A stretch of 64,000 nucleotides of DNA from Naegleria gruberi (Eukaryota). Positions 9,923 through 60,607 of this stretch are shown here, one piece after another. The notes beneath the pieces were generated by a model. That model was not told where the DNA came from. It did no database searches and was given only the letters and a program-made list of their open reading frames with translations. The stretch lies in the NCBI GenBank assembly GCA_000004985.1, contig GG738924.1, one strand, 5' to 3'. Position numbers and translations under genes: made by a program. Positions within the stretch are counted from its first letter, which is position 1. Each line of letters begins with the position of its first letter.

Positions 9923-11011
9923 ATGGGTTGTTATGCTAAAGAGAATAGATTAACCGACCAAGAAGAAATTTTCAATGAGGGAGGAGGAGATGACGTAGCA
10001 GTTATGAAATATTTTGATATTAAGAATTCATCAATATTAGCAGCAACTATTATTTGGCAATTTTCGGATGAACATATGATGTTTTATTCGGGCGAATCTC
10101 GTGAAGAATTTCAAGATAATATGCCCCTCAATGACTTTGCCAATGAATGTATTCCATTGTGGTTACCTGACATTAGAAAGAAAGCTTTCAAAATTTGCAC
10201 TTTGAAAGAATGGTTAGATGAAGATGAAAATAATCCTCTTCATTCTTCTGGATTTCAATTTTCTCCTTCATACATAGGAAGTTCATCAATTGAGAAGGAA
10301 GGTACAATTTATTGTGCTTCAAATGATTTGTTTTCTCCTCATCAAGTAATGATGAAAGAAAAAATTAAGAGAAAGTTTGTGGAATTTTGTGCTTGTACCT
10401 CCTTTGGAAATGGATTGGATATTGAGGGAATTGATTTTTCAATGTTATGTGGAAAGATTTCGGATAACAGCTTGAAAACAGAGTTTATTGTACCATGTGC
10501 TTATAATCAAGTAGAAGAAACTCCTGTTATAGTGATTGGATACCCAACAAGACCTTCCAAGGCTCAAATTCTGAATGCTTATGAAATTCCTCCAAAAAGG
10601 AGGGCATTCGATGCTATATTCTCTTACAATTATAAAACAGCAAGTATAGGAAAGATCAAACACAGCACTAATCCCGATTTCATGTTAATTTCAAATGCGA
10701 CTTGTTTTGGAATGGAAGGTTCTGCTGTATTTTCTATAAAAGGGGAATTAATTGGAATAGTTATGAAAAGAAAGAAGATTTCAAAGTATAACATTGTTTT
10801 AAGTGTAAATCATCCAAGTTTTGTCATTGAATATTTGAGCTACCCAGGAAATGAACTTCTTTCTATGGATAGATCATTATATCTGCCTTTACTAGCTCCA
10901 TATATTGAGAAACACTTTCAACTTTTAACGAAAGCAATCGAAAACAAGTTGTTGAACGAAACTTTGAAGAAGAATGTGAAAAATGTGTTGGACATGGTTA
11001 ATATGAGATAA
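9923..11011 (+). CDS. Hypothetical protein (362 aa), possible trypsin-like fold with a non-canonical active site
   Basis: The C-terminal region NATCFGMEGSAVFSIKGELIGIVMKRKK resembles the GDSGGP...G.LVGIVS block of chymotrypsin-fold proteases, but the catalytic Ser position is not conserved. I have no firm homology. Confidence 0.35.
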   Translation: MGCYAKENRLTDQEEIFNEGGGDDVAVMKYFDIKNSSILAATIIWQFSDEHMMFYSGESREEFQDNMPLNDFANECIPLWLPDIRKKAFKICTLKEWLDEDENNPLHSSGFQFSPSYIGSSSIEKEGTIYCASNDLFSPHQVMMKEKIKRKFVEFCACTSFGNGLDIEGIDFSMLCGKISDNSLKTEFIVPCAYNQVEETPVIVIGYPTRPSKAQILNAYEIPPKRRAFDAIFSYNYKTASIGKIKHSTNPDFMLISNATCFGMEGSAVFSIKGELIGIVMKRKKISKYNIVLSVNHPSFVIEYLSYPGNELLSMDRSLYLPLLAPYIEKHFQLLTKAIENKLLNETLKKNVKNVLDMVNMR

Positions 11012-11520: not shown

Positions 11521-11661
11521 AAAATGTATAATATTCCAACTGGAAAAATGAATTAATAAATGGTTTTTCATTATTCATTATAGCTATTCGTTTTATAAAA
11601 TTTGAGCAGTGGTTGAGAAAGTATATAAAGAGGTTTAAGGTATTAAGGAAATCATGAAGCA

Positions 11662-11734
11662 GCTGGCGTAGCTCAGTCGGTAGAGCGTTGGTCTAATAAG
11701 CCATTGGTCGCCGGTTCGATCCCGTCCGTCAGCA
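11662..11734 (+). tRNA. tRNA-Ile (anticodon AAU)
   Basis: 73-nt cloverleaf. Acceptor GCTGGCG/CGTCAGC, D arm GCTCAGTCGGTAGAGC, anticodon loop CTAATAA, T arm GCCGGTTCGATCCCGTC. TTAAGG lies at -19..-14. A TTTT terminator follows 6 nt downstream. Confidence 0.85.
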
Positions 11735-12282
11735 ATGATTTTATACATTACGTTTTGAATCATTAAAACATTCGCGTACTTTGACTCTCAAACAATGTTT
11801 CAAGAAAGCTTATCAACTAGCTTTACAGATTATAGGAAACACTGGTATGTGTTTTGAAGAATAATATCTGATTGAAATAATCCTCTTTTTCTAAAGTAGT
11901 TGATTCTAGTGTTTTCTTCCAAACAATTGTCCGCCAATTAACATTTACTCAAACTGGAATCTTTTAAGGTTTTTCCAAAATACTCTTAATAAAATTAACA
12001 TCTATTTCAATGGTGGACTTGCGTTTCAGAAAAAATATGAAATTGACACACAAAAAGTTTGTGAGTGAAGGTAGTGTCGATCTACCACCTTAGATTCAAC
12101 GGTGAGCGTCTATGTTCTCCCAATTAAACTATTCACCCACAAATTTATCTATTAAACACACAGATCAAGATATGATAATAAGCACTTCCAAAAATAGATT
12201 TGGTTTTGGTTTTGATTAATTTTAAATATAACTTATTGAATTTGACGCTCTATTCAGAATAGAGTTTAGTCAGTGGATTGTT

Positions 12283-34017: not shown

Positions 34018-34575
34018 TTAAATAATATCAAATGTTTTCAGTGATCTACTATATCGGAGATTATCCTCATCACTTGAACTCCTTTCCGTTACCAAATTGT
34101 CATCCGAATTTTTCACATCTCCCAACACATTAATCCGATCTCCCCTCGAATTCACCACAAATCCCTCATCATTCACAGAATACTTTCCCCTCCATAATCT
34201 CCATCCAACAATCAAGGTAACAATACCAATTCCCAAAAAGAGAATTGAAATTGCAACGAGCAAGGCGTAAATTCCATTTTCAAGATCTGGAAAATCAAAG
34301 AGTGAATCACAAATTGCAAAAGTGATGGTCATACTGATGAGAATGAATGCTAGGAGGAAGGAGATGGCGGTAACTGAGACGATGGTGAGGATGAATTTAG
34401 TTTTCGGGGTGAAGAATGAATTGGAGGGTTTAGAATGGATTTGAGTAGTTTCGGCAGTGCATGTTTCAGTTGGAATGTGTTGTTGGGAGGTTGTATCGAG
34501 TGATGCAGAAGTGTTTGTGGGATCTATTGAAGGTCTTTCAGTTGTACTTTGATTGGTGTCAGTCGTTATCGTCAT
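34018..34575 (-). CDS. Small 2-TM protein, tandem paralog 1 (185 aa)
   Basis: T/Q/S-rich N-terminus, then two hydrophobic helices. Conserved C-terminal block WRGKYSVNDEGFVVNSRGDRINVLGDV, shared with the neighbouring ORF. Confidence 0.45.
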   Translation of the reverse strand: MTITTDTNQSTTERPSIDPTNTSASLDTTSQQHIPTETCTAETTQIHSKPSNSFFTPKTKFILTIVSVTAISFLLAFILISMTITFAICDSLFDFPDLENGIYALLVAISILFLGIGIVTLIVGWRLWRGKYSVNDEGFVVNSRGDRINVLGDVKNSDDNLVTERSSSDEDNLRYSRSLKTFDII

Positions 34576-34706: not shown

Positions 34707-35237
34707 TCAAATGATCATTGAATTGTTTAATTTTACATTAATATCAGTAACTTCTCCCAAATAATTAATTGGTTCACCTGTCGAGTTTACAACTGTCCCT
34801 TCTGAATTCACTGCAAACTTTCCTCTCCACATTTTAATCCCAACCAAAGTAGTAACCAATCCAACAGCAAGAAAGAAGGCAGATATGGAAATCATTAAAG
34901 CATAAATTTCACCATGCGCTTGAGCATAATCAAGAGAATGCATAACTGCAACAATGACAGTTGAAATTAATAAAGAAATTCCTATGAAACATGAAGTACA
35001 CGTTGTGATTATGATAATTAGTGAGAAACGAGTTTTGGAATTGCAACACGAGGAAGTATTTGGGGCGGTGGTTGTAGTTTGGTCAATTTGTATTGGGATA
35101 ATTTCTTGTTGTGGTTGATTGTGATTTGCTTCTTTTTCTTGATGCTTTACCTCCTGATAGGTAACAGCTGTTGTGAGTTGTGGTGGCGTCGCTGGACATG
35201 GTATTATTGTTGATGAAATAGCACTGTCAGTAGTCAT
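34707..35237 (-). CDS. Small 2-TM protein, tandem paralog 2 (176 aa)
   Basis: Same architecture. Shared C-terminal block WRGKFAVNSEGTVVNSTGEPINYLGEV. Confidence 0.45.
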   Translation of the reverse strand: MTTDSAISSTIIPCPATPPQLTTAVTYQEVKHQEKEANHNQPQQEIIPIQIDQTTTTAPNTSSCCNSKTRFSLIIIITTCTSCFIGISLLISTVIVAVMHSLDYAQAHGEIYALMISISAFFLAVGLVTTLVGIKMWRGKFAVNSEGTVVNSTGEPINYLGEVTDINVKLNNSMII

Positions 35238-35707: not shown

Positions 35708-36772
35708 ATGCCATTCAAAATATTCGATACTTTAGAAGTTACCATTAAAAACGGTGTTGATCTTGAAGCCGCTGACTTTAATGGCTTCAGTGATCCATAG
35801 TATGTTGTGTTAAATATTTAAAATATTGTAACGATCGATTTAGTGTCATTGTTCAAACTAAAGCTCTTGTAGATGAAAAGCTTCCTTCCTATTTGAAAGA
35901 AGCAGCCAAGGGATGGAAGCAAAAAACCTCCATCAAGAAGAAGGATTTAAATCCAACCTGGAATGAAACCAAAACTTTCCACAGTGTTTACTGTCTTGAT
36001 AAAGGTGAAGGAATTAAAGTACTTTTCAAGGTTTTTGATTGGGATATGCTCTCAAGAGATGTAAGTATTGATTGATCAAAAATGAATGTTGATTAATAAC
36101 GGTTTCGAATAATAATAGGATGCTATTGGAAAGGCAGAAATTGTTATCAATTTTGACAAGCTTGAACACAATAAGGAATATTCTGAGACTCTCAAATTAA
36201 CAGATTGTAAATCTGGTAGCTTGAACATTACCTATAAGGTTGTTAACTTTAATCAATGTAGAGTTGAATCTGGTTATCAATATCACAACTTGTTCACTCC
36301 ACCAGTTGCTGAACTTTGTGCTCCAAAAGACTTTTCTCTACTCAGTTCTAGCTCTGTTGGTGTTGCTAGTGTTGCAATCTTTGCCAACATGAAGAAGGGT
36401 TACGTTCTCTTGTCAACTCTCACCAAATTAGAATCAGGTGATTTAGATTTTGCTGCCATTGCCAAGAATATGAGTGAAGATCGTTTCCGTGAAATGAGAA
36501 AGGAATATTCCAAGGTTGATATCAAATCACGTGATGAGAATGTCAACCCAGATCCTCATTGCAAGAATAAGTTCATTACCCACATTTTGGAATTTGTTTT
36601 GAATGTTGAAAAGAAGGGATTGAAGATGATTGGTACTTTGAGAATTGTTGGACATTCTAATGGATATTTGGGTATTTATGTTTATATGGAACCACAAGAA
36701 AGCTTGTACTCTAGTGGTTCAGGTCAAACTGAATTGGCTAGAATATCCGAGAGTACTATCTTTTTGAATTAA
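35708..36772 (+). CDS. C2-domain protein, 3 exons
   Basis: Exons are 35708..35799, 35844..36060 and 36119..36772. Intron 1 is 44 nt (GTATGT...TTTAG), intron 2 is 58 nt (GTAAGT...AATAG). The spliced product MPFKIFDTLEVTIKNGVDLEAADFNGFSDPYVIVQTKALVDEKLPSYLKEAAKGWKQKTSIKKKDLNPTWNETKTF...FDWDMLSRDDAIGKAEIV... is a canonical C2 fold. Before splicing, an in-frame TAG follows SDP. A 215-aa C-terminal region follows. Confidence 0.7.
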
Positions 36773-36834
36773 TAAATTAATAGAAAATAATTGGTTCATT
36801 GCAGCAAGATTCTAAGGTTATTAAGGAAAACACT

Positions 36835-36925
36835 GGTGAGATGGTCGAGTGGTCTAAGACGACACGTTAAGGTATGATTAATACCGTGTTCCGCAAGGGC
36901 GTGGGTTCAAATCCCACTCTCATCA
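36835..36925 (+). tRNA. tRNA-Leu (anticodon AAG) with an 11-nt intron
   Basis: Class II tRNA. Acceptor GGTGAGA/TCTCATC, D arm GTCGAGTGGTCTAAGAC, anticodon stem-loop ACACG-TTAAGG-[ATGATTAATAC]-CGTGT, long variable arm TCCGCAAGGGC, T arm GTGGGTTCAAATCCCAC. TTAAGG at -14..-9. TTTT terminator. Confidence 0.65.
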
Positions 36926-37001
36926 AATTTTGCTTTAGGAATTGATTGGAAACTAATAAGGCTCTTGATATTTAATTAAATTTCGTTAATTAAGGCAAGA
37001 A

Positions 37002-37007
37002 GGGGTT

Positions 37008-37038
<31 letters not shown>

Positions 37039-37074
37039 TGCAGAAGGTCTAGGGTTCGATTCCCTATGACTCCA
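37002..37074 (+). tRNA. tRNA-Ala (anticodon UGC), copy 1
   Basis: GGGGTTATAGCTCAGTTGGTAGAGCGTCTGCTTTGCATGCAGAAGGTCTAGGGTTCGATTCCCTATGACTCCA with the G3:U70 Ala identity pair. TTAAGG at -12..-7. TTTT terminator after CCAA. Confidence 0.9.
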
Positions 37075-37496
37075 ATTTTACCCCATTCGTTGTTTTTATT
37101 GGCCAAATATGTATTATTATATTACTTATCGATTTCATACCCAATACTCTATTATTTCGATGGTTTGAGTGTCAAATCCAACCACTATGAATACTGAGAG
37201 TTGATCTTGGAGTTTTTGGAATTGTTGGAGATGACAACCTTGAACTTTTAAAAAGAAGTGAAAAGACTTGATATTGAAATATAAACATTGAATAGTTTAT
37301 TAACCACTTTTAGATTGTTATGAATTCAAAGTCAATCTATCGCTCATTTTTTTGTATACAAACATTGTAAACTCTGATTTCGATTACTTTCAACAATGAG
37401 TAATTATATTATTAGAAACGTGATTACTAAAAACAATTCAAAAAGCACGTTTCAGAAATTCCCAACAAGAAACAACTTTAAAACAAACAATTCTAA

Positions 37497-37859
37497 ATGG
37501 CAATCACCAGAATCACAGAAATTTGGGTCGTTTCCTACACTATCCAACACAGAAAAACAGAAGTTTCATCCTGTTGCGTTCTAATCCTCTGGATCATCCT
37601 TACATGCATTTCCATTCAAGCAATCTACACTGCATGCGATCAAATTCAAAACAATCCTAAAGATAAAACATTTGGTGATCCAGTTACTGCTATAATCATC
37701 TGGTCAGGGATCTTGGCAATGTTGACATGTTGTTGCTGTTCATGTTGTTGTGGGGTGGTTTGGAAATGTATTAGAAATCCAGTTTCTAATAATTTGCGTA
37801 AAAATAATGGTATGGATGAGAATGCCAACAGTGGATATTATCAGAGTGCTGAATGTTGA
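37497..37859 (+). CDS. Small cysteine-rich membrane protein (candidate ORF)
   Basis: Two hydrophobic helices with a CCCCSCCCG palmitoylation-like cluster. The start and exon structure are uncertain. A second small ORF at 37396..37584 overlaps it in another frame. Confidence 0.3.
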   Translation: MAITRITEIWVVSYTIQHRKTEVSSCCVLILWIILTCISIQAIYTACDQIQNNPKDKTFGDPVTAIIIWSGILAMLTCCCCSCCCGVVWKCIRNPVSNNLRKNNGMDENANSGYYQSAEC

Positions 37860-38308
37860 AGAGGGAAGTTTCGAATGAAAATTGTAAATATACTGTATTC
37901 CAAAAACTAATAAATAAAATTCTAATAAAATAGATCAATTCATAACTGAGGAGTGTTCTACTCATTGGCGAATATTACAAGTTTCCACAATGAAAGAATA
38001 AAAGTTCTTAAAACTAAAAACTTTGCCAAAAATAAATTATAAATTGTTAATATTTCTTCATTCTCATCAAATACTTTTTCAAGATGATCCTCCTTATCAG
38101 CTTTGGAATTTCCTTTAATGAGAGGAAGAACAACTGTTTTCAATGAAGCCGTTCCAGAAATTTTTTGGTTGATGGGCACTCAATATGATCTAATGGTAAC
38201 ATGTATTGTTTTGGAGCATTTTTCTTTCTTTTAGTATTCTACTTGCAATACTTGCAAGAAGACTAAGGCTATAAATGAACTCATTTATAAATCCTAATTA
38301 AGGAAAGA

Positions 38309-38315
38309 AGGGGTT

Positions 38316-38346
<31 letters not shown>

Positions 38347-38381
38347 TGCAGAAGGTCTAGGGTTCGATTCCCTATGACTCC
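38309..38381 (+). tRNA. tRNA-Ala (anticodon UGC), copy 2
   Basis: Identical to the 73-nt copy 1. Shares the upstream ATTAAGGMAAGAA and the downstream CCAATTTT flank. Confidence 0.9.
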
Positions 38382-38514
38382 AATTTTGGTCCCATTAGTT
38401 ATTTTTTATTGAGGCATGCAAGAAGAACATATGGGAAGCGTAATTGGATTGTGGGCTGATTTCACAATCTTAAAAAATCCACAACACAACTGACTCAACA
38501 CTTCACAGGATACA

Positions 38515-39243
38515 ATGAATGGATCTCTCATCAGTAACACCCAGACAATAAAATCCTCCTCTCAATACGCAACACCAAAGAAGATATCCAAAGACACTGA
38601 AGTAAAATGTGAGTTACTGTTTTTATTACCAAATCTTATTCAATGATCTTCTTTTCGGTATTCAATCGTTATTATCTTTGTTCATCACACTTCTAAATTA
38701 CTATTATGAACAGTCTGTAAAGGATACATGAACAAGTTGGGAGCCATTGATACTTGTACAGCAAATATTGGAGGAAATATCATGGTTAGGCAAATTCAGA
38801 AACATCACACTCTCAATCTGATGGCTGTGACAAAAACCGTCGATACTTCTCCGCCTTGGTCATATAGACAGCATCAGTCACCCAAAACCAATACCATTCA
38901 GCAAGTAAATATGATGAGAGCCTCCTTAAATACTACAAGTCCACTAGCAAAGCAAAAATCGTCTAGCAATTTTGAAAAGCTGGATTTAAAGTAGGTTTTC
39001 CAATTGAATCTTATCTCATACTGTTATTTATTGATCAATAGTAAGGAAAATATGATTGATATTGAACAGGAGTTGGACGAACATGATCAGATCATTTACA
39101 AAAACTTTATGGAAATGTTGTCAAAGAGAAAATGTTTTGCAGATGCTCAAATATTGGCAACAATTGCATTGGGAAAGGTTGAAGAAGAATGGGCAGAAAA
39201 ACAACAAATTCCACCATCACAACATGAAGAAATAAATTCGTAA
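38515..39243 (+). CDS. Lineage-specific protein P1, 3 exons, 190 aa, downstream of tRNA-Ala copy 2
   Basis: Exons 38515..38608, 38714..38990, 39042..39243. Intron 1 is 105 nt (GTGAGT...AACAG), intron 2 is 51 nt (GTAGGT...AATAG). The product is MNGSLISNTQ...FCKGYMNKLGAIDTCTANIGGNIMVRQIQKHH...KLDLNKENMIDIEQELDEHDQIIYKNFMEMLSKRKCFADAQILATIALG... It is a paralog of P2. The ORF track shows only fragments. Confidence 0.55.
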
Positions 39244-39295
39244 ACTCTAAGATGGTTAATGCATATATTGATCGATTTTAATATTAAGGCAAGAA

Positions 39296-39301
39296 GGGGT
39301 T

Positions 39302-39332
<31 letters not shown>

Positions 39333-39368
39333 TGCAGAAGGTCTAGGGTTCGATTCCCTATGACTCCA
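39296..39368 (+). tRNA. tRNA-Ala (anticodon UGC), copy 3
   Basis: Identical 73-nt sequence. Upstream ATTAAGGCAAGAA. TTTTTTT terminator. Confidence 0.9.
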
Positions 39369-39645
39369 ATTTTTTTGTTCCGTGAGTACACTCGAATTGT
39401 ATTCTTAATTAACTCTCTTATTCTGAAATAACATTTCAACAATGGTAATGCTTTCTACGTCAATCCAAGGCATTGAGATTTTGTTAAAAGAGAGACGCGA
39501 ACAGTTGATTTAATGGTAATAATCGATTCAGTGGAGAAAGACATTCCAAACATAACGGAAAAAGTTTACGATTTTGTAGTTGGTAGTTTTAAGGGCAACA
39601 ACGATAAAACAGGAGATAGAGAAAATAAAATACAAATAGAAACAA

Positions 39646-41014
39646 ATGAATGGAACCACTACCTCACAGAGTACAAGAAATAACAACAGCAACAACAACA
39701 ACAACAATAACAAGAATAAGAACAATGAGGTTAAAGGTAAGGAAAATGAAGCATATTCATCCCATTAATTTATAAATTGATTTTGTTATTTCAAATAATA
39801 CAAATTTGAAAATATATTGTTTTACGTCATCTCTATGAAATTATTGATTGTTATCCTAATAATACAATATAAAGTATGTCGGAGCTATATGAATAAATTG
39901 GGAACAATTGATGCTTGTACAGCAAACATTGGAGGTAGTATTATGATCGATCAAATCAAGAAGAACCACACTGTAAATATGATGTCCATGAAGAAACGTG
40001 TGGATAATGAATTACCTTGGTCTTATAGGAATGTACCAGCTAATTTCAATTTAAATCGTAGAGTGAGTCCTCTGAAGAAACCAAAAACACTCTCACCAAT
40101 TAATACCAAAGACAATAGAATGGCCACTTTATCAAGCACTCAACAACATCGAGGAGCACACACTGAAAGAGGAGGCTCTAAGAGTAAATTAGATCTGTCG
40201 TAAGTTTCATAATGCTTTGATGGTTTGCTCAATATAATTTCCTTAAACATCATTTGCTGATATTACATGATAATACTATTATAATTTCAATTTACATTGT
40301 TATCAACAAATAATTATTTAAATATAATTTAACAGAAAGGACAATAAGATTGACCCTGTTCAAATATTGGAAGAACCAGAAGATCAGGAAATTTACGAAA
40401 AATTCCTCGATTTACTGAGGAGGAGAAAGACCATTGAGGAGGCTAGAAAGATAGCTTCCTCTGTCTTTTTGGAAGCCGAAGAGCAAATGCTCTTAGGAGC
40501 TTACAGTGGAGTACCTCAATATGTTGAAGGATTTATAAGTAAGGATGACGAACATCAAACCCCTAATGAAGATCTTGAAGAAGATAGAACCCTAGAGAAC
40601 CATGCACAAGAATCAGAAGCTAAGGAAGAAGAATTAAATGAAGGCCAGTACGAAACATCATTTGCAACACTGGAAGAACACGAAGAGAGTATCTCCAATC
40701 CATATGAAGACAACTCTAATCCATACGATGAAGATAACACAATTGAGGAAGGTAAACCTGAGGTGACTGGAAAGTATAAGGAAAAGTCTGGAAAGATTTG
40801 GGTTGTCACAGCTTCCACTGCATCAGCATTTGAGTTGTTCAATGAGAAGGATGGAAGAAAGGCTGAAGGTAAATATATTAAGGATTCCTCAGGAAATTAT
40901 TCCATCACTTTTACTTTCCATGATCCTAATGGTGATGCTGTTTTAACCTCTGTGACATCGAACCTTAACACGATTCCTCTCAGTAATGGAGATGCCTTCA
41001 CAAAAGTTGAATAA
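39646..41014 (+). CDS. Lineage-specific protein P2, 3 exons, about 364 aa, downstream of tRNA-Ala copy 3
   Basis: Exons 39646..39736, 39875..40199, 40336..41014. Introns GTAAGG...ATAAAG and GTAAGT...TTAACAG. Same exon phases as P1 (1, 2). The product is MNGTTTSQSTRNNNSN...VCRSYMNKLGTIDACTANIGGSIMIDQIKKNH...KLDLSKDNKIDPVQILEEPEDQEIYEKFLDLLRRRKTIEEARKIASSVF... plus an acidic C-terminal extension. Confidence 0.55.
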
Positions 41015-43694: not shown

Positions 43695-44534
43695 TTACAC
43701 CTTTGCTCCATAGTACTCACTGCTCAACCTTTCTTGATAAAATTCTTCTGAAAATTCAAGGTAGAAACCATTTGATCTTACAGCTTCTAACTGGACTTGC
43801 TTGTTCATTTTCAAGATAAAAGGAAGATATTTCAAAGCTAGACCATTCTGTTGTACTGCCATCATTGCTAGCTCTTCTGAAATCAAGTTGTCTTCAATAT
43901 TGCAAACCACCAAACCATTGGTAGAGATCGCCTCTCTGATGAAACTTTCGTCATACTGGTGAGGATTGTTCCAAAAAGTTGCATTATTATATTTGATCAG
44001 TTCCAAATACATGTATCTATCTTCCCAACATGAAAATTCTGGAATAAAAAAGTTAATACGTCCACCTTTAGCAGCATACAAAACAATTTCCTTATCCAAT
44101 CTCAAGTTAAGTGAAAGACATTTGTAATTATGTGGATTCGTTTTCATAATGTGGAGTGCTAACTCTCTATCATTTCGTAAATCGCTCGACAAATAATCAA
44201 CAATAAAACATTGTTCATCCATTTTCTGCTCACAAAGTTCAAATATGAAATCTCTCTCGCTCAATATCGTATTTCTGGTGGAATGGAATTGTTCTGGAAG
44301 CTTTTCCAACATGGAAGGTTTTTTCAAGAGTGCAATTTTGAGAATTTCATCATCCATATAGTTAGCATAATGAACAGAATAGGGATTATGTTTAACTGCC
44401 TCTAATATAACCTCCCTGTCACATTTCAATAGATCTGATGCATATCTAAGGCATGATTGACCAGACACTAGTGGTTTATCGCATCTTACAGCCAGTAAAA
44501 CTATTTCTCTATCATTTTTCATTTCTCCACTCAA
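43695..44534 (-). CDS. DUF4116-repeat protein, 3' portion (279 aa)
   Basis: Repeated units of the type NDREIVLLAVR...L.Y.S..LK.DREVILEAVKHN. Its first 72 codons are about 99% identical at the nucleotide level to the last 72 codons before the assembly gap in the 46035..47055 ORF. Confidence 0.5.
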   Translation of the reverse strand: MSGEMKNDREIVLLAVRCDKPLVSGQSCLRYASDLLKCDREVILEAVKHNPYSVHYANYMDDEILKIALLKKPSMLEKLPEQFHSTRNTILSERDFIFELCEQKMDEQCFIVDYLSSDLRNDRELALHIMKTNPHNYKCLSLNLRLDKEIVLYAAKGGRINFFIPEFSCWEDRYMYLELIKYNNATFWNNPHQYDESFIREAISTNGLVVCNIEDNLISEELAMMAVQQNGLALKYLPFILKMNKQVQLEAVRSNGFYLEFSEEFYQERLSSEYYGAKV

Positions 44535-51893: not shown

Positions 51894-53037
51894 ATGTCAA
51901 CACAAGAACAAGCAGATAAATGGTTTGAAACTAATATGGATGTTTGGTATGATGCCATTGTCGATCTAACATTTAGGTGAGTTGATCTATTATTCTTCTA
52001 TTATTTAATTTGGTTATCATATTATAGAACAAGAATGATATCTCTTTCGGAGGAGCAAATTATGGCCATCATTCTCGATAATGAATATTTCAATGGTGAA
52101 TGCAATCAGGAAGTGTTGGAAACAAGTGGTATTGATATCGTGTCGAGTTTAAATTCCGACACAAGGCGAACAGTATTGGAAACGTTAGAAATTGATGTAA
52201 ATAGAGAGATGAAAGAATTATCTTGTTGTAATGATGAAGGATGTTTTATTAAATTGAGCTGTAGATCTCCGAAGGATGCCTTTGCTGTATGTGCAAAGAT
52301 GAAGGAGTTATTCAATGACAAGATTGAGAAAATTGTAATGGAAAAGAAAGGAGTTTTAGCAACTCCCAATGAAAGGTTGATAGCTGTCAACGAATCATTT
52401 ATACAATCAATGAAGGTGAAGGATTTTGCTGAAGAGTACACATATTTTACCAAGTCAGCAAGAGTATTGGAAGATTTACTGTTATTTCTCAAATATGATA
52501 AGAAGCAACGAGAAGAAAATCCTATCAAGATTATCATTAGAGAGTGGGTTGATATTCCTTCAAAATATGAATTCAGATCATTTGTGAAAAACAAACAATT
52601 GACAGCCATCTCTCAATATTTTGACACTTGTTCTATCCAGATTTGGTTGCAGAGGAAGATTTAATTAAGGAAAAAAACTATACGACTTTTTCACAAACCA
52701 AGTTGCTCATCGAGTTCCCCTAAATGATTACATTTGTGATTTTGCAATTGATTCGAATGGAAGAGTTTACATTGTTGAATTGAATCCATTCTCCACAACA
52801 ACTGATGCATGTCTCTTCAGTGTAAGTTGACTTTAATTCTTGAAAATTTATTTACTAAAATACTTACAATGAAAATAATAGTGGACAAAGGATGGTGAAA
52901 TTTTGAATGGAATACAAATCAAGAATGAAACAAATCAATTGGATCAGATCGAGTTTAGACTCAAAAAGGAAGTTGAAAAGCATTTGAAACATCAAATCAT
53001 TTCAGTGTGGGTTCCTTTTGTCATTCCATCCCAATAA
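51894..53037 (+). CDS. CDC123: CDC123 / D123-family protein, at least 4 exons, with one unresolved frame problem
   Basis: Exon 1 is 51894..51976 and intron 1 is 51977..52027 (GTGAGT...TATAG). Exon 2 starts at 52028 and contains the family motif KLSCRSPKDA. The last intron is 52822..52881 (GTAAGT...AATAG) and the final exon is 52882..53037 (...LFSWTKDGEIL...). Between about 52640 and 52678 the reading frame changes twice around TAA and TGA stops and an A7 run. No GT-AG intron of the right phase fits. See findings. Confidence 0.6.
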
Positions 53038-58947: not shown

Positions 58948-60607
58948 CGTTTCCTTAATAAAACATTCAAAAAAACGTTTTAAATGTTGTCTAGAATGTT
59001 GTTGAAACCCTTAATTTTCAGAGCCGAAAGGTTACTCTACAATAGCAACTCCACCTAAGAGAGTCTTATTAGAAACGTTACCTTCCCAGTCTAGTCTTCA
59101 TCTCTCCTTTGAGGATCAGCTAATCCCACTCGCAACTGGTGAACAATTTAAGAAAGCACTCCCTTATCATCATATTGCTTGTTAGACAGTTAAAAGCCCT
59201 TGGGTTTTATAAAAAGAGATTCAGTGCAGAGATTGCCAACTGAATACACGACCATTTCTAGTATTGGAATTATCCTGTATGGAATGAAGAGAAATCATAG
59301 GGATAATACATTGTATTAGAGTTATCACAGTGGACCCATCATTGTTGATCTAAATCTGCCTCTTAATTATACGTATTATCTTCAAGAAAATGTTAAAGAA
59401 GATATAAATGGCAATGATTGCATTAGTTGCTCAACACAGAGAAACTTTGCAGAAACCCACAAGTTGATTGATTCAATTGATTCATTTAGTCCAATGAATT
59501 GGCCAGGAGTTAATCCAAGTATGAGAGATACAGAATCCCTTCAAATTATCATGAAAGATATTGAGAAACATAGAATAACTAGTTCTCATGTTTATCATTG
59601 GATGGAAGGAGTTGAATTGAAATATTCAGATGGAGGAAAGATTTGGTTTCATTTTACAATTGAAAATGCATATGTAATGGTTGATTATCAATCTTCTAGT
59701 TTATTTTAGAGAGAGTGGATTGTTATACTAATAGAATAATCAAATTAATAGTAAGAGAAAGATTGAAAAAGTAAAAGTAGGAAGACAGGGAATCAAACTC
59801 TGATCTTTGGAACCACAATCCCACTAAACCATCTCCCTCATTGCATTCTTACATTTAGAATAATTTAAGTATATTAAGGGTTTGGTCAGGCAAATTAGTT
59901 GATATGCAAATGGGAACAATCTTCTTATAAATTACATCTTTCATAATAATCTTGAGTGTGATTTTGCAAATAGATTTGATTAGAAATAGTTTATTCCTTT
60001 TCTTTGTATGATACAATTTTCAATGCTAATAGTTTCGCTCGCAGTTAGCAAATTTGAGGTCTATATTGATCAAGATGATATGCCTATTATTGAATATGTG
60101 TTGTTACTATTACACATAACAATCCGAGCACTTCTTTACCATCTAGCATCCCAAACATCACTATATTCATGTCTATGTGGCAATGATTCAATTCCACTCA
60201 AAGTACAATCCTTTGTAGTCTTTGATAAAACGGAACGAGTCATTGTTCTTCCGGCTCCATGATATTCGGCTTTCCAATACTTGTTAGAGTGAAGTGTTTT
60301 TGTTATTTTTAGATTTTAAAAATAAATTTGAACACTTTGAGTTCTTCTGGTGTTCATTGTAATTATACACATGAATTTTGTTGATAATAAAAGTTGTAGT
60401 CTACATGTGATGAGCAATGATAAATTGTGTTTCTTTTCATGAAGATTAGAATACACAATTAACTTCTTATTATTAGTATGAGCCCATCTTCACATATTTT
60501 TTGAAACAAAAAGCTGGGCTCTGGCGATAATAACATCATCAAGCTGTGCTTTATTTGATGATGAAGTATTTATTAGACTGCTTATTTAAAGCGTATACGA
60601 GCAATCA

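What the first reader, a model, noticed from the sequence alone, without database searches (positions are those of the whole stretch)
36780..41014. tRNA cluster with a shared TTAAGG upstream motif, and a tandemly duplicated tRNA-Ala + three-exon-gene cassette
Five Pol III genes (Ile at 11662, Leu at 36835, Ala at 37002, 38309 and 39296) all carry TTAAGG(A/C)AA ending 7-14 nt upstream of the mature 5' end, and a T4-7 terminator within 8 nt downstream. This points to a lineage-specific upstream promoter element for tRNA genes.

The three tRNA-Ala copies are 100% identical, with conserved 5' flanks. Copies 1 and 2 also share a conserved 3' flank. Copies 2 and 3 are each followed by one copy of a paralogous 3-exon protein gene with no recognised family (P1 38515..39243, P2 39646..41014; same intron phases; conserved YMNKLG.ID.CTANIGG and E.IY..F...L..RK motifs). 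So a tRNA+gene unit has duplicated in tandem.

The tRNA-Leu carries an 11-nt anticodon-loop intron.
Basis: partly seen in the sequence, partly recalled or inferred. Interest (0 to 1): 0.55.

Follow-up and report, generated by a model that had tools for sequence, protein, structure and literature searches.

The report
Naegleria tRNA cluster with shared upstream box
In this stretch of the amoeba Naegleria gruberi, all five tRNA genes carry the same 10-base box (ATTAAGG[A/C]AA) where RNA polymerase III should start, which suggests a lineage-specific promoter element, but five genes in one window cannot show it is genome-wide.

Summary
The window is Naegleria gruberi NEG-M nuclear DNA.

**tRNA genes.** There are five on the + strand: Ile-AAU, Leu-AAG with a canonical 11-nt intron, and three identical Ala-UGC. 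Each has ATTAAGG(A/C)AA upstream, with TTAAGG starting at -19, -14 or -12 from the mature 5' end. Each has a T4-T7 run 1-4 nt downstream.

**Is the box chance?** No. The 9-mer occurs 10 times against 2.5 expected, and five of those sit at tRNAs. Three random 25-mers share a 9-mer in 2 of 400,000 draws. None of 165 control tRNAs carries it.

**Reading.** It lies where Pol III normally initiates, so I read it as a start-site-proximal promoter element. It is a sequence variant of the plant/yeast TATA+CAA arrangement.

**Limits.**
- No further independent Naegleria tRNA gene could be fetched.
- The one orthologous copy recovered, from a near-identical strain, lacks the GG.
- One Acrasis tRNA lacks the box.

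**P1 and P2.** They are true paralogues (41% identity) with intron positions conserved in two other Naegleria. They belong to an unannotated Discoba-wide family, with no GoLoco match and a faint CFAP97-like motif.

**The cassette.** A tRNA+gene duplication is plausible but unproven. No DNA similarity survives, sister species have one P gene and no tRNA, and the tree is ambiguous.

The parts
11642..11651 (+). ATTAAGGAAA box upstream of tRNA-Ile. TTAAGG starts at -19. A second TTTAAGG lies at 11634-11640.
11662..11734 (+). tRNA-Ile(AAU). A T4 run lies at 11739-11742.
   Evidence: ARAGORN; Rfam 59.9 bits; flank
36813..36829 (+). TAAGGTTATTAAGGAAA: a double TAAGG box upstream of tRNA-Leu. The main TTAAGG starts at -14.
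36835..36925 (+). tRNA-Leu(AAG) with an 11-nt intron at the canonical 37/38 site, about 36873-36883. A T4 run lies at 36928-36931.
   Evidence: Rfam 48.3 bits; ARAGORN intron mode and spliced re-test
36987..37079 (+). tRNA-Ala(UGC) copy 1, as the conserved 93-nt unit that runs from the ATTAAGGCAA box (36989-36998) through the tRNA (37002-37074) to the T4 run.
   Evidence: (family D1)
38295..38387 (+). tRNA-Ala(UGC) copy 2, same 93-nt unit: box ATTAAGGAAA 38297-38306, tRNA 38310-38382, T4 run. About 20 nt of its 3' flank is shared with copy 1.
38515..39243 (+). P1, a three-exon gene (38515-38608, 38714-38990, 39042-39243) of 190 aa. It is a divergent, C-terminally shortened paralogue of P2 and lacks the family's LLxxYxG motif.
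39281..39373 (+). tRNA-Ala(UGC) copy 3, same 93-nt unit: box ATTAAGGCAA 39283-39292, tRNA 39296-39368, T7 run 39370-39376. It starts 52 nt after the P1 stop codon.
39646..41014 (+). P2, a three-exon gene (39646-39736, 39875-40199, 40336-41014) of 364 aa. It is the conserved member of a Discoba family and carries an added C-terminal 8-stranded beta-barrel domain.

Best explanation
The region is an ordinary type-2 RNA polymerase III gene cluster in the compact nuclear genome of Naegleria gruberi. It holds tRNA-Leu(AAG) and three tRNA-Ala(UGC) genes, with a fifth tRNA (Ile) 25 kb away. The tRNAs are interleaved with protein-coding genes.

Each tRNA gene has internal A and B boxes and a T-run terminator. 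Each also has a shared 10-nt box, ATTAAGG(A/C)AA, placed 12-19 nt upstream of the mature 5' end.

I read the box as a start-site-proximal core promoter element. TFIIIC bound to the A and B boxes would place TFIIIB upstream. Pol III would then start in or just after the box, probably at the T/A step of TTAA. That gives leaders of about 10-17 nt.

The 93 nt conserved among the three Ala copies (-15 to +5) would then be exactly the transcription unit, from start site to terminator.

What is shown: the genes, the box, its position, and its non-random association with tRNAs. What is inferred: that it acts in transcription initiation.

The two protein genes behind Ala2 and Ala3 are DNA-level duplicates with introns retained. 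They belong to a small Discoba-specific protein family. The most economical history is a tandem duplication of a tRNA-Ala+P unit in the N. gruberi lineage, followed by fast divergence of P1.
For: **Organism.** Five window ORFs are exact N. gruberi NEG-M proteins.

**Genes.** The tRNAs are.

**The box is not chance.**
- 10 hits against 2.46 expected, with 5 of the 10 at tRNAs.
- Three random 25-mers from the window share an exact 9-mer in 2 of 400,000 draws.
- tRNA-Ile, tRNA-Leu and tRNA-Ala are unrelated bodies, and Ile lies 25 kb away.
- Ile and Leu share a longer double-TAAGG version of the box.

**Negative control.** Of 165 other tRNAs on 120 metagenomic contigs, none has the 9-mer and one has TTAAGG within 30 nt upstream.

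**Sharp conservation boundary.** Among the Ala copies -15..-1 scores z 5-10, while -60..-16 and everything beyond +45 are at background. P1 and P2 are only 41% identical. If the tRNAs were copied along with P1 and P2, their flanks have had that long to randomise.

**Position.** The box sits where Pol III starts in other eukaryotes: transcription begins 9-12 nt upstream of the mature end, and a CAA motif lies at -7 to -3 in plants and yeast (PMC3082873).

**P genes.** The intron positions are shared with N. lovaniensis and a second Naegleria species.
Against: - Only three independent tRNA families support the box, all from one 64-kb window.
- None of about 90 kb fetched from N. fowleri, N. lovaniensis, Willaertia and another Naegleria holds a tRNA. 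The box could therefore not be tested in another Naegleria species or genome-wide.
- The orthologous Ala3 in a strain about 99.5% identical reads TTAAATCATGAA instead of TTAAGGCAAGAA. That contig starts only 20 nt upstream of the tRNA and could be another haplotype or a mis-join.
- One Acrasis kona tRNA-Leu has no box.
- No transcript 5' ends are available, so a role in the transcribed leader cannot be separated from a role in DNA.
- For the cassette: there is no residual DNA similarity, the sister species lack both P1 and the tRNAs, and P1 and P2 come out as sisters in only 17 of 500 bootstraps.
Confidence: 0.45

Rival explanations
1. The box is part of the transcribed 5' leader and acts at the RNA level, for example in pre-tRNA processing, protein binding or leader-trailer pairing. 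In this reading Pol III starts upstream of the box.
For: The box lies within 19 nt of the mature end, so it would be transcribed if the start site is a little further upstream. The conserved unit of the Ala copies runs up to the terminator, as expected for a transcript-level unit.
Against: Its distance to the mature end varies from -12 to -19, which fits poorly with a processing determinant read from the cleavage site. Inspection of the sequence shows no convincing leader-trailer pairing. Typical leaders of 9-12 nt (PMC3082873) would begin inside the box rather than upstream of it.
Confidence: 0.2
2. The shared box has no function. It reflects local sequence history (duplication, gene conversion, or retro-copying of primary transcripts) plus coincidence.
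For: - The three Ala copies are not independent.
- Their conserved block (-15 to +5) is also what retro-copying of a primary transcript, or a short conversion tract, would leave behind.
- A near-identical strain has lost the GG at Ala3 while the tRNA body is unchanged.
- tRNA flanks are known to mutate fast (PMC6130373).
Against: This does not explain why unrelated tRNA-Ile (25 kb away) and tRNA-Leu carry the same 10-mer on the same strand at a similar position. It also does not explain why Ile and Leu share a 17-nt double version. The chance estimate is about 5e-6.
Confidence: 0.15
3. The box is a binding site for a factor unrelated to Pol III initiation. Examples are a boundary or chromatin factor, or a signal serving the neighbouring Pol II genes (promoter or 3'-end signal) that happens to sit in the short intergenic regions where tRNAs reside.
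For: Five further copies of the 9-mer lie away from tRNAs. Two of them sit within 3 nt of stop codons of protein genes, at 52665 and 58950. The Ala3 box is 41 nt after the P1 stop codon.
Against: The five non-tRNA copies are close to the chance expectation of 2.5 and show no common strand or context. The strict strand and distance relation applies to the tRNA, not to the neighbouring genes.
Confidence: 0.1
4. On the cassette only: P duplicated long ago, before the Naegleria species split. The tRNA-Ala copies spread into the intergenic regions later and independently, so no tRNA+gene unit was ever copied.
For: - In the NJ tree P1 branches outside (P2, N. lovaniensis, Naegleria sp.). P1 and P2 are sisters in 17 of 500 bootstraps.
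- Ala1 has no P gene behind it.
- The Ala1-Ala2 flanks are more alike than Ala2-Ala3.
- P2 keeps a conserved upstream element that P1 lacks.
Against: - No P1 orthologue was found in any other species.
- P1 and P2 share residues that differ in the other Naegleria. For two of them, the C in CTAN and the I in ANIGG, the Willaertia outgroup agrees with the other Naegleria. The third is the M in YMNK.
- P1 is a long branch, which distance trees tend to pull towards the root.
Confidence: 0.4

Closest known systems
Upstream TATA plus CAA (start-site) motifs of plant and yeast tRNA genes
   Same: These are short conserved elements just upstream of type-2 Pol III genes, close to the transcription start. 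CAA lies at -7 to -3 and the start site at about -9 to -12 (PMC3082873). They act together with the internal A and B boxes and the T-run terminator. Ala1 and Ala3 even read CAA at -6 to -4.
   Different: The conserved sequence here is ATTAAGG(A/C)AA, not CAA. Ala2, Leu and Ile have no CAA at that place. The box is longer (10 nt, doubled in Ile and Leu). A fixed TATA element about 30 nt upstream could not be separated from the AT-rich background. No function has been tested.
Isoacceptor-specific 5' flank motifs of animal tRNA genes
   Same: [quoted passage not shown] This matches the near-identical -15..-1 of the three Ala copies.
   Different: Here the same box is also shared across three different amino-acid families.
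Fast-evolving flanks of active tRNA genes (transcription-associated mutagenesis)
   Same: Between the window and a strain about 99.5% identical, 11 differences cluster within -20..+31 of tRNA-Ala3, while the tRNA itself is unchanged (PMC6130373).
   Different: The excess here is larger than I recall being described for other species (from memory, not checked in the paper), and it comes from the end of one metagenome contig. An assembly or haplotype effect is not excluded.
CFAP97 / Hemingway domain proteins (Pfam PF13879; CFAP97D1 in sperm axoneme structures 8otz, 9v10)
   Same: The N-terminal motif of the P family, H..RM..VKP.VD..PW, aligns with the start of the CFAP97 domain in three separate searches. 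Naegleria and the diplonemid and heterolobosean homologues are flagellated.
   Different: All the scores are below threshold (10.9 and 17.9 bits against a cut-off of 25.6; PDB E 0.17). Only about 25-40 residues align. The rest of the P family has no counterpart there.

Membership tests
Eukaryotic type-2 Pol III gene (nuclear tRNA) | Cloverleaf tRNA with internal A box (TRGYNNA..GG) and B box (GGTTCRANYCC) | tested here: met
   Rfam tRNA model scores 48-72 bits against a threshold of 29 for all five genes. ARAGORN agrees. Both boxes can be read in the sequence.
Eukaryotic type-2 Pol III gene (nuclear tRNA) | Run of at least 4 T shortly after the 3' end, acting as terminator | tested here: met
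   T4 to T7 runs start 2-5 nt after the discriminator base at all five genes.
Eukaryotic type-2 Pol III gene (nuclear tRNA) | Intron, if present, lies between positions 37 and 38 | tested here: met
   tRNA-Leu(AAG) has an 11-nt intron one base 3' of the anticodon. The spliced form is a normal 80-nt tRNA.
Upstream promoter element of tRNA genes (as in plants and yeast) | Position-specific enrichment upstream of most tRNA genes of the genome | tested here: inconclusive
   5 of 5 genes in the window, from 3 independent families, carry the box. Against that, 0 of 165 control tRNAs have it. One orthologous copy in another strain and one Acrasis tRNA lack it. No genome-wide set could be obtained.
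Upstream promoter element of tRNA genes (as in plants and yeast) | CAA at -7 to -3 and a TATA-like element about 30 nt upstream | tested here: not met
   CAA at -6..-4 occurs only in Ala1 and Ala3. Ala2, Leu and Ile lack it. TATA-like strings are present (TATATAAA before Ile, TATAAAT before Ala2) but at no fixed distance, and the background is 67% A+T.
Upstream promoter element of tRNA genes (as in plants and yeast) | Mutation of the element changes start site or transcription rate | not testable with these tools
   This needs 5'-end mapping of pre-tRNAs or transcription assays.
Tandem segmental duplication of a tRNA+gene unit | Adjacent paralogous genes in the same orientation with the same intron positions | tested here: met
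   P1 and P2 are 41% identical, E 4e-36. Their intron phases are 1 and 2 at homologous codons.
Tandem segmental duplication of a tRNA+gene unit | Similarity of non-coding DNA across the two units, or a recognisable junction | tested here: not met
   Only -15..+5 around the tRNA is alike. -60..-16 and +46..+150 are at background.
Tandem segmental duplication of a tRNA+gene unit | The two paralogues are each other's closest relatives | tested here: inconclusive
   NJ with bootstrap places P1 basal; P1 and P2 are sisters in 17 of 500 replicates. Shared derived residues point the other way. Sister species have a single P gene and no nearby tRNA.
GoLoco motif | Match to the Pfam GoLoco model | tested here: not met
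   Neither P1 nor P2 gives a GoLoco hit, even at E up to 1.
CFAP97 / Hemingway (PF13879) | Score above the Pfam gathering threshold of 25.6 bits over the 100-position domain | tested here: not met
   P1 scores 10.9 bits and the family member P0141 scores 17.9 bits, on profile positions 1-40 only. A family profile against PDB CFAP97D1 gives E 0.17.

The most novel reading that the evidence does not exclude
ATTAAGG(A/C)AA is a Naegleria-specific, sequence-defined start-site/core promoter element used by most Pol III tRNA genes. That would be the first such element described in Heterolobosea. It differs in sequence from the plant and yeast TATA+CAA arrangement. I found no report of it in the searchable literature.
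Probability: 0.4. Interest if true: 0.55.

Novelty: new variant of a known kind. Interest (0 to 1): 0.4.

Why it matters
Upstream control of tRNA genes is well described only in yeast, plants and a few animals. Almost nothing is known for Discoba.

- A defined 10-nt box at the start site would give a handle on TFIIIB/Pol III start-site selection in a deep-branching eukaryote.
- It would give a practical signature for finding other Pol III genes in Naegleria.
- It would provide a candidate Pol III promoter for guide-RNA or small-RNA expression in N. gruberi and the pathogen N. fowleri, if the box is shared.

The P genes add two unannotated genes to N. gruberi and define a small Discoba-wide protein family that may be linked to flagella.

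If the box turns out not to be general, this is simply an ordinary tRNA cluster.

Tried and rejected
**Getting more Naegleria tRNA flanks** largely failed; only the second copy of Ala3 noted below was recovered.
- Loci around orthologues of the P gene, FPGS and TEL2 contain no tRNA. These came from N. lovaniensis, N. fowleri, Willaertia and an unnamed Naegleria (checked).
- The contig that should have reached the tRNA-Ile site ends about 130 nt past the neighbouring gene.
- None of the N. gruberi products tried was on record in the contig index.
- One contig from a near-identical strain did yield a second copy of Ala3.

**Collection scans.**
- A metagenome scan for box + A box + B box returned only prokaryotic, phage and one insect contig. 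It served as a negative control only.
- A scan of prokaryotic genomes for the tRNA-Ala body found nothing.

**Ideas rejected.**
- GoLoco resemblance in exon 3: no hit.
- Paralogy between the genes ending near 36609 and 37859, suggested by two short repeats (D12 and D16). The matches lie in different reading frames at different spacing.
- A conserved TAAGGCT at about -50 of the Ala copies: not significant.
- A piggyBac-type TTAA target or a tRNA-carrying mobile element: inspection shows no matching inverted end downstream.
- Other Pol III genes next to the five non-tRNA copies of the box: a permissive Rfam scan finds none there.
- The fold-search library afdb50 was unavailable.

Full report
**Source.** Five long ORFs of the window are exact matches to NCBI proteins of Naegleria gruberi strain NEG-M, all on one 196,593-bp scaffold. 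The window is 33% G+C and densely packed with genes. It is therefore nuclear DNA of a heterolobosean amoeboflagellate.

**The tRNA genes.** ARAGORN and the Rfam tRNA model agree on five genes, all on the + strand:
- Ile(AAU) 11662-11734
- Leu 36835-36925
- Ala(UGC) 37002-37074, 38310-38382 and 39296-39368

In intron mode ARAGORN calls the Leu gene as tRNA-Leu(AAG) with an 11-nt intron one base after the anticodon. Deleting those 11 nt gives a normal 80-nt tRNA-Leu. The three Ala genes are identical, and the sequence shows the G3:U70 pair. T4 to T7 runs begin 2-5 nt after each 3' end.

**The upstream box.**
- TTAAGGMAA occurs 10 times in the window against 2.46 expected, and no shuffle reaches 10.
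- Five of the ten are directly upstream of the five tRNAs, on the tRNA strand. TTAAGG starts at -19 (Ile), -14 (Leu) and -12 (all Ala).
- All five share the 10-mer ATTAAGGMAA.
- Ile and Leu also carry a second TAAGG 8-9 nt further upstream: TTTAAGGTATTAAGGAAA and TCTAAGGTTATTAAGGAAA.

The three Ala copies are not independent, so I counted three families. Three random 25-mers from the window share an exact 9-mer in 2 of 400,000 draws.

As an outside control I used the 120 metagenomic contigs returned by a motif-plus-tRNA scan. They are almost all prokaryotic or phage. Of 165 other tRNAs on them, none has the 9-mer and one has TTAAGG within 30 nt upstream.

The association in this window is real.

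**What constrains the box.** Among the Ala copies, similarity is confined to a 93-nt unit from -15 to +5, that is, from the box to the T run.
- The -15..-1 segment scores z 5-10 against shuffles.
- -60..-16 and +46..+150 are at background.
- Only Ala1 and Ala2 share about 20 nt of 3' flank, which includes a second T run.

The genes behind Ala2 and Ala3 are only 41% identical at protein level. If the tRNAs were copied with them, the flanks have had ample time to randomise. The box-to-terminator block survived either by selection or by homogenisation.

**Position and mechanism.** In plants and yeast, Pol III starts 9-12 nt upstream of the mature 5' end, and a CAA motif lies at -7 to -3 behind a TATA-like element (PMC3082873). 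The Naegleria box covers exactly that zone.

My best reading is a start-site-proximal core promoter element. TFIIIC on the A and B boxes places TFIIIB upstream, and the polymerase starts in or just after the box, probably at the T/A step of TTAA. This step is inference. No transcript ends are available, and a role in the transcribed leader cannot be excluded.

Full-text searches for Naegleria with tRNA upstream regions, with Pol III promoters, or with the motif itself found nothing relevant.

**Attempts to generalise, and the counter-evidence.** I fetched orthologous or neighbouring loci from N. lovaniensis, N. fowleri, Willaertia magna, an unnamed Naegleria and Acrasis kona, about 110 kb in all. 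None of the Naegleria or Willaertia loci contains a tRNA. None of the N. gruberi products I tried was on record in the contig index.

Two extra data points argue for caution.
- **A second strain.** A 1.7-kb metagenome contig from a strain about 99.5% identical to the window carries the orthologous tRNA-Ala3 with an identical body. Its upstream 20 nt read TTTTTACCTTAAATCATGAA, so TTAAGGCAA has become TTAAATCAT. Five more differences lie in the first 31 nt downstream.
  - This looks like the fast flank evolution described for active tRNA genes (PMC6130373), or another haplotype.
  - The contig begins only 20 nt upstream of the tRNA, so the result is fragile.
  - If real, it shows the box can be lost at one of several redundant copies.
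- **Acrasis kona.** Its only tRNA in the fetched locus has no such box.

**The protein genes.** The hand-built exon models hold.
- Both genes splice GT-AG into open frames of 190 aa (P1) and 364 aa (P2), with intron phases 1 and 2.
- The same two intron positions are present in the annotated N. lovaniensis orthologue and in a second Naegleria contig.
- Neither gene is in the N. gruberi protein set. The search returned only the N. lovaniensis protein, exon-sized fragments, and an unrelated N. gruberi protein that shares P2's C-terminal domain.

A profile search finds 18 relatives. They include proteins of Willaertia, Percolomonas and the diplonemids Lacrimia and Hemistasia. The family is therefore Discoba-wide. 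It has two conserved blocks:
- N.EN[IV]GGR....H..RM..VKP.VD..PW
- Y..FV..L....E.EE..LL..Y.GV.P

Pfam gives no significant hit and no GoLoco. The first block repeatedly but weakly touches the start of the CFAP97/Hemingway domain. That is a lead only.

**Was a tRNA+gene unit duplicated?**
- For: the layout Ala2-P1-Ala3-P2 fits a tandem duplication, and the introns show it was a DNA-level event.
- For: N. lovaniensis has one P gene and no tRNA within 10 kb. The other Naegleria contig has one P gene and no tRNA on its 3.4 kb. No P1 orthologue was found anywhere. All this favours a gain in the N. gruberi lineage.
- Against: no non-coding similarity remains.
- Against: Ala1 has no P-like sequence behind it.
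- Against: a distance tree puts P1 outside all Naegleria P2 orthologues, with P1 and P2 sisters in 17 of 500 bootstraps. P1 is a long branch, and P1 and P2 share derived residues.

I rate the cassette model at about even odds.

**Verdict.** The promoter reading is reasonable and, as far as the searchable literature shows, undescribed, but it rests on three tRNA families in one window, with one contrary orthologue. If general, it is a new sequence variant of a known kind of element.

Noticed in passing
L128:1-130 compared with window 39276-39400: In a metagenome contig from a strain about 99.5% identical, the tRNA-Ala3 body is unchanged. However, 6 of 20 nt upstream and 5 of 31 nt downstream differ, against a few differences in the remaining 1.6 kb. 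This is either strongly localised flank divergence of the kind linked to transcription-associated mutagenesis, or a haplotype/assembly effect. The variant leader AAATCATGAA also occurs in the window's tRNA-Ile leader (11649-11658).
   Followed up: partly
window 38515-39243 and 39646-41014: P1 and P2 are absent from the public N. gruberi protein set. They belong to an unnamed family of proteins of about 200 aa found in Heterolobosea and diplonemids. The family has a faint CFAP97-like N-terminal motif.
   Followed up: partly
[not shown]
   Followed up: partly
window ~39553-39575; L001 ~9949-9970; L126 ~1738-1760: A conserved element, ATAAC(C/G)GAAAAA followed by GTAAAT or GTTTAC, lies 60-90 nt upstream of the P start codon in N. 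lovaniensis, a second Naegleria and N. gruberi P2. It is absent from P1. It could be the gene's own promoter element.
   Followed up: no
window 59778-59838 (-): A tRNA-like sequence scores just below the Rfam threshold (27.3 against 29 bits). It is only 61 nt long, has a fully paired acceptor stem and a T4 run 3 nt downstream, and has no TTAAGG box. It may be a decayed or unusual tRNA gene.
   Followed up: no
window 44078-44185 (-): A weak U6atac-like match (25.3 bits, E 0.033, threshold 33) includes AGAGAGTTAGCACTCC. It lies inside a 279-aa ORF and is probably a chance match.
   Followed up: no
window 34018-34575 (-) and 34707-35237 (-): Two adjacent ORFs encode clearly related small membrane proteins with the shared motif W+GK..VN.EG.VVNS.G..IN.LG.V. 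This is another local tandem duplication.
   Followed up: no
L127:2644-2740 (Acrasis kona): A tRNA-Leu(UAG) is recognised only after 15-17 nt are removed from the D loop. As it stands, ARAGORN miscalls it tRNA-Trp and Rfam misses it. It may be a non-canonical D-loop intron or insertion.
   Followed up: partly
L002:12269-21121 (N. fowleri): Between FPGS and TEL2, which are adjacent in N. gruberi, N. fowleri has about 9 kb of extra genes. One of them is a reverse transcriptase/RNase H ORF, so a retroelement has probably inserted there.
   Followed up: no
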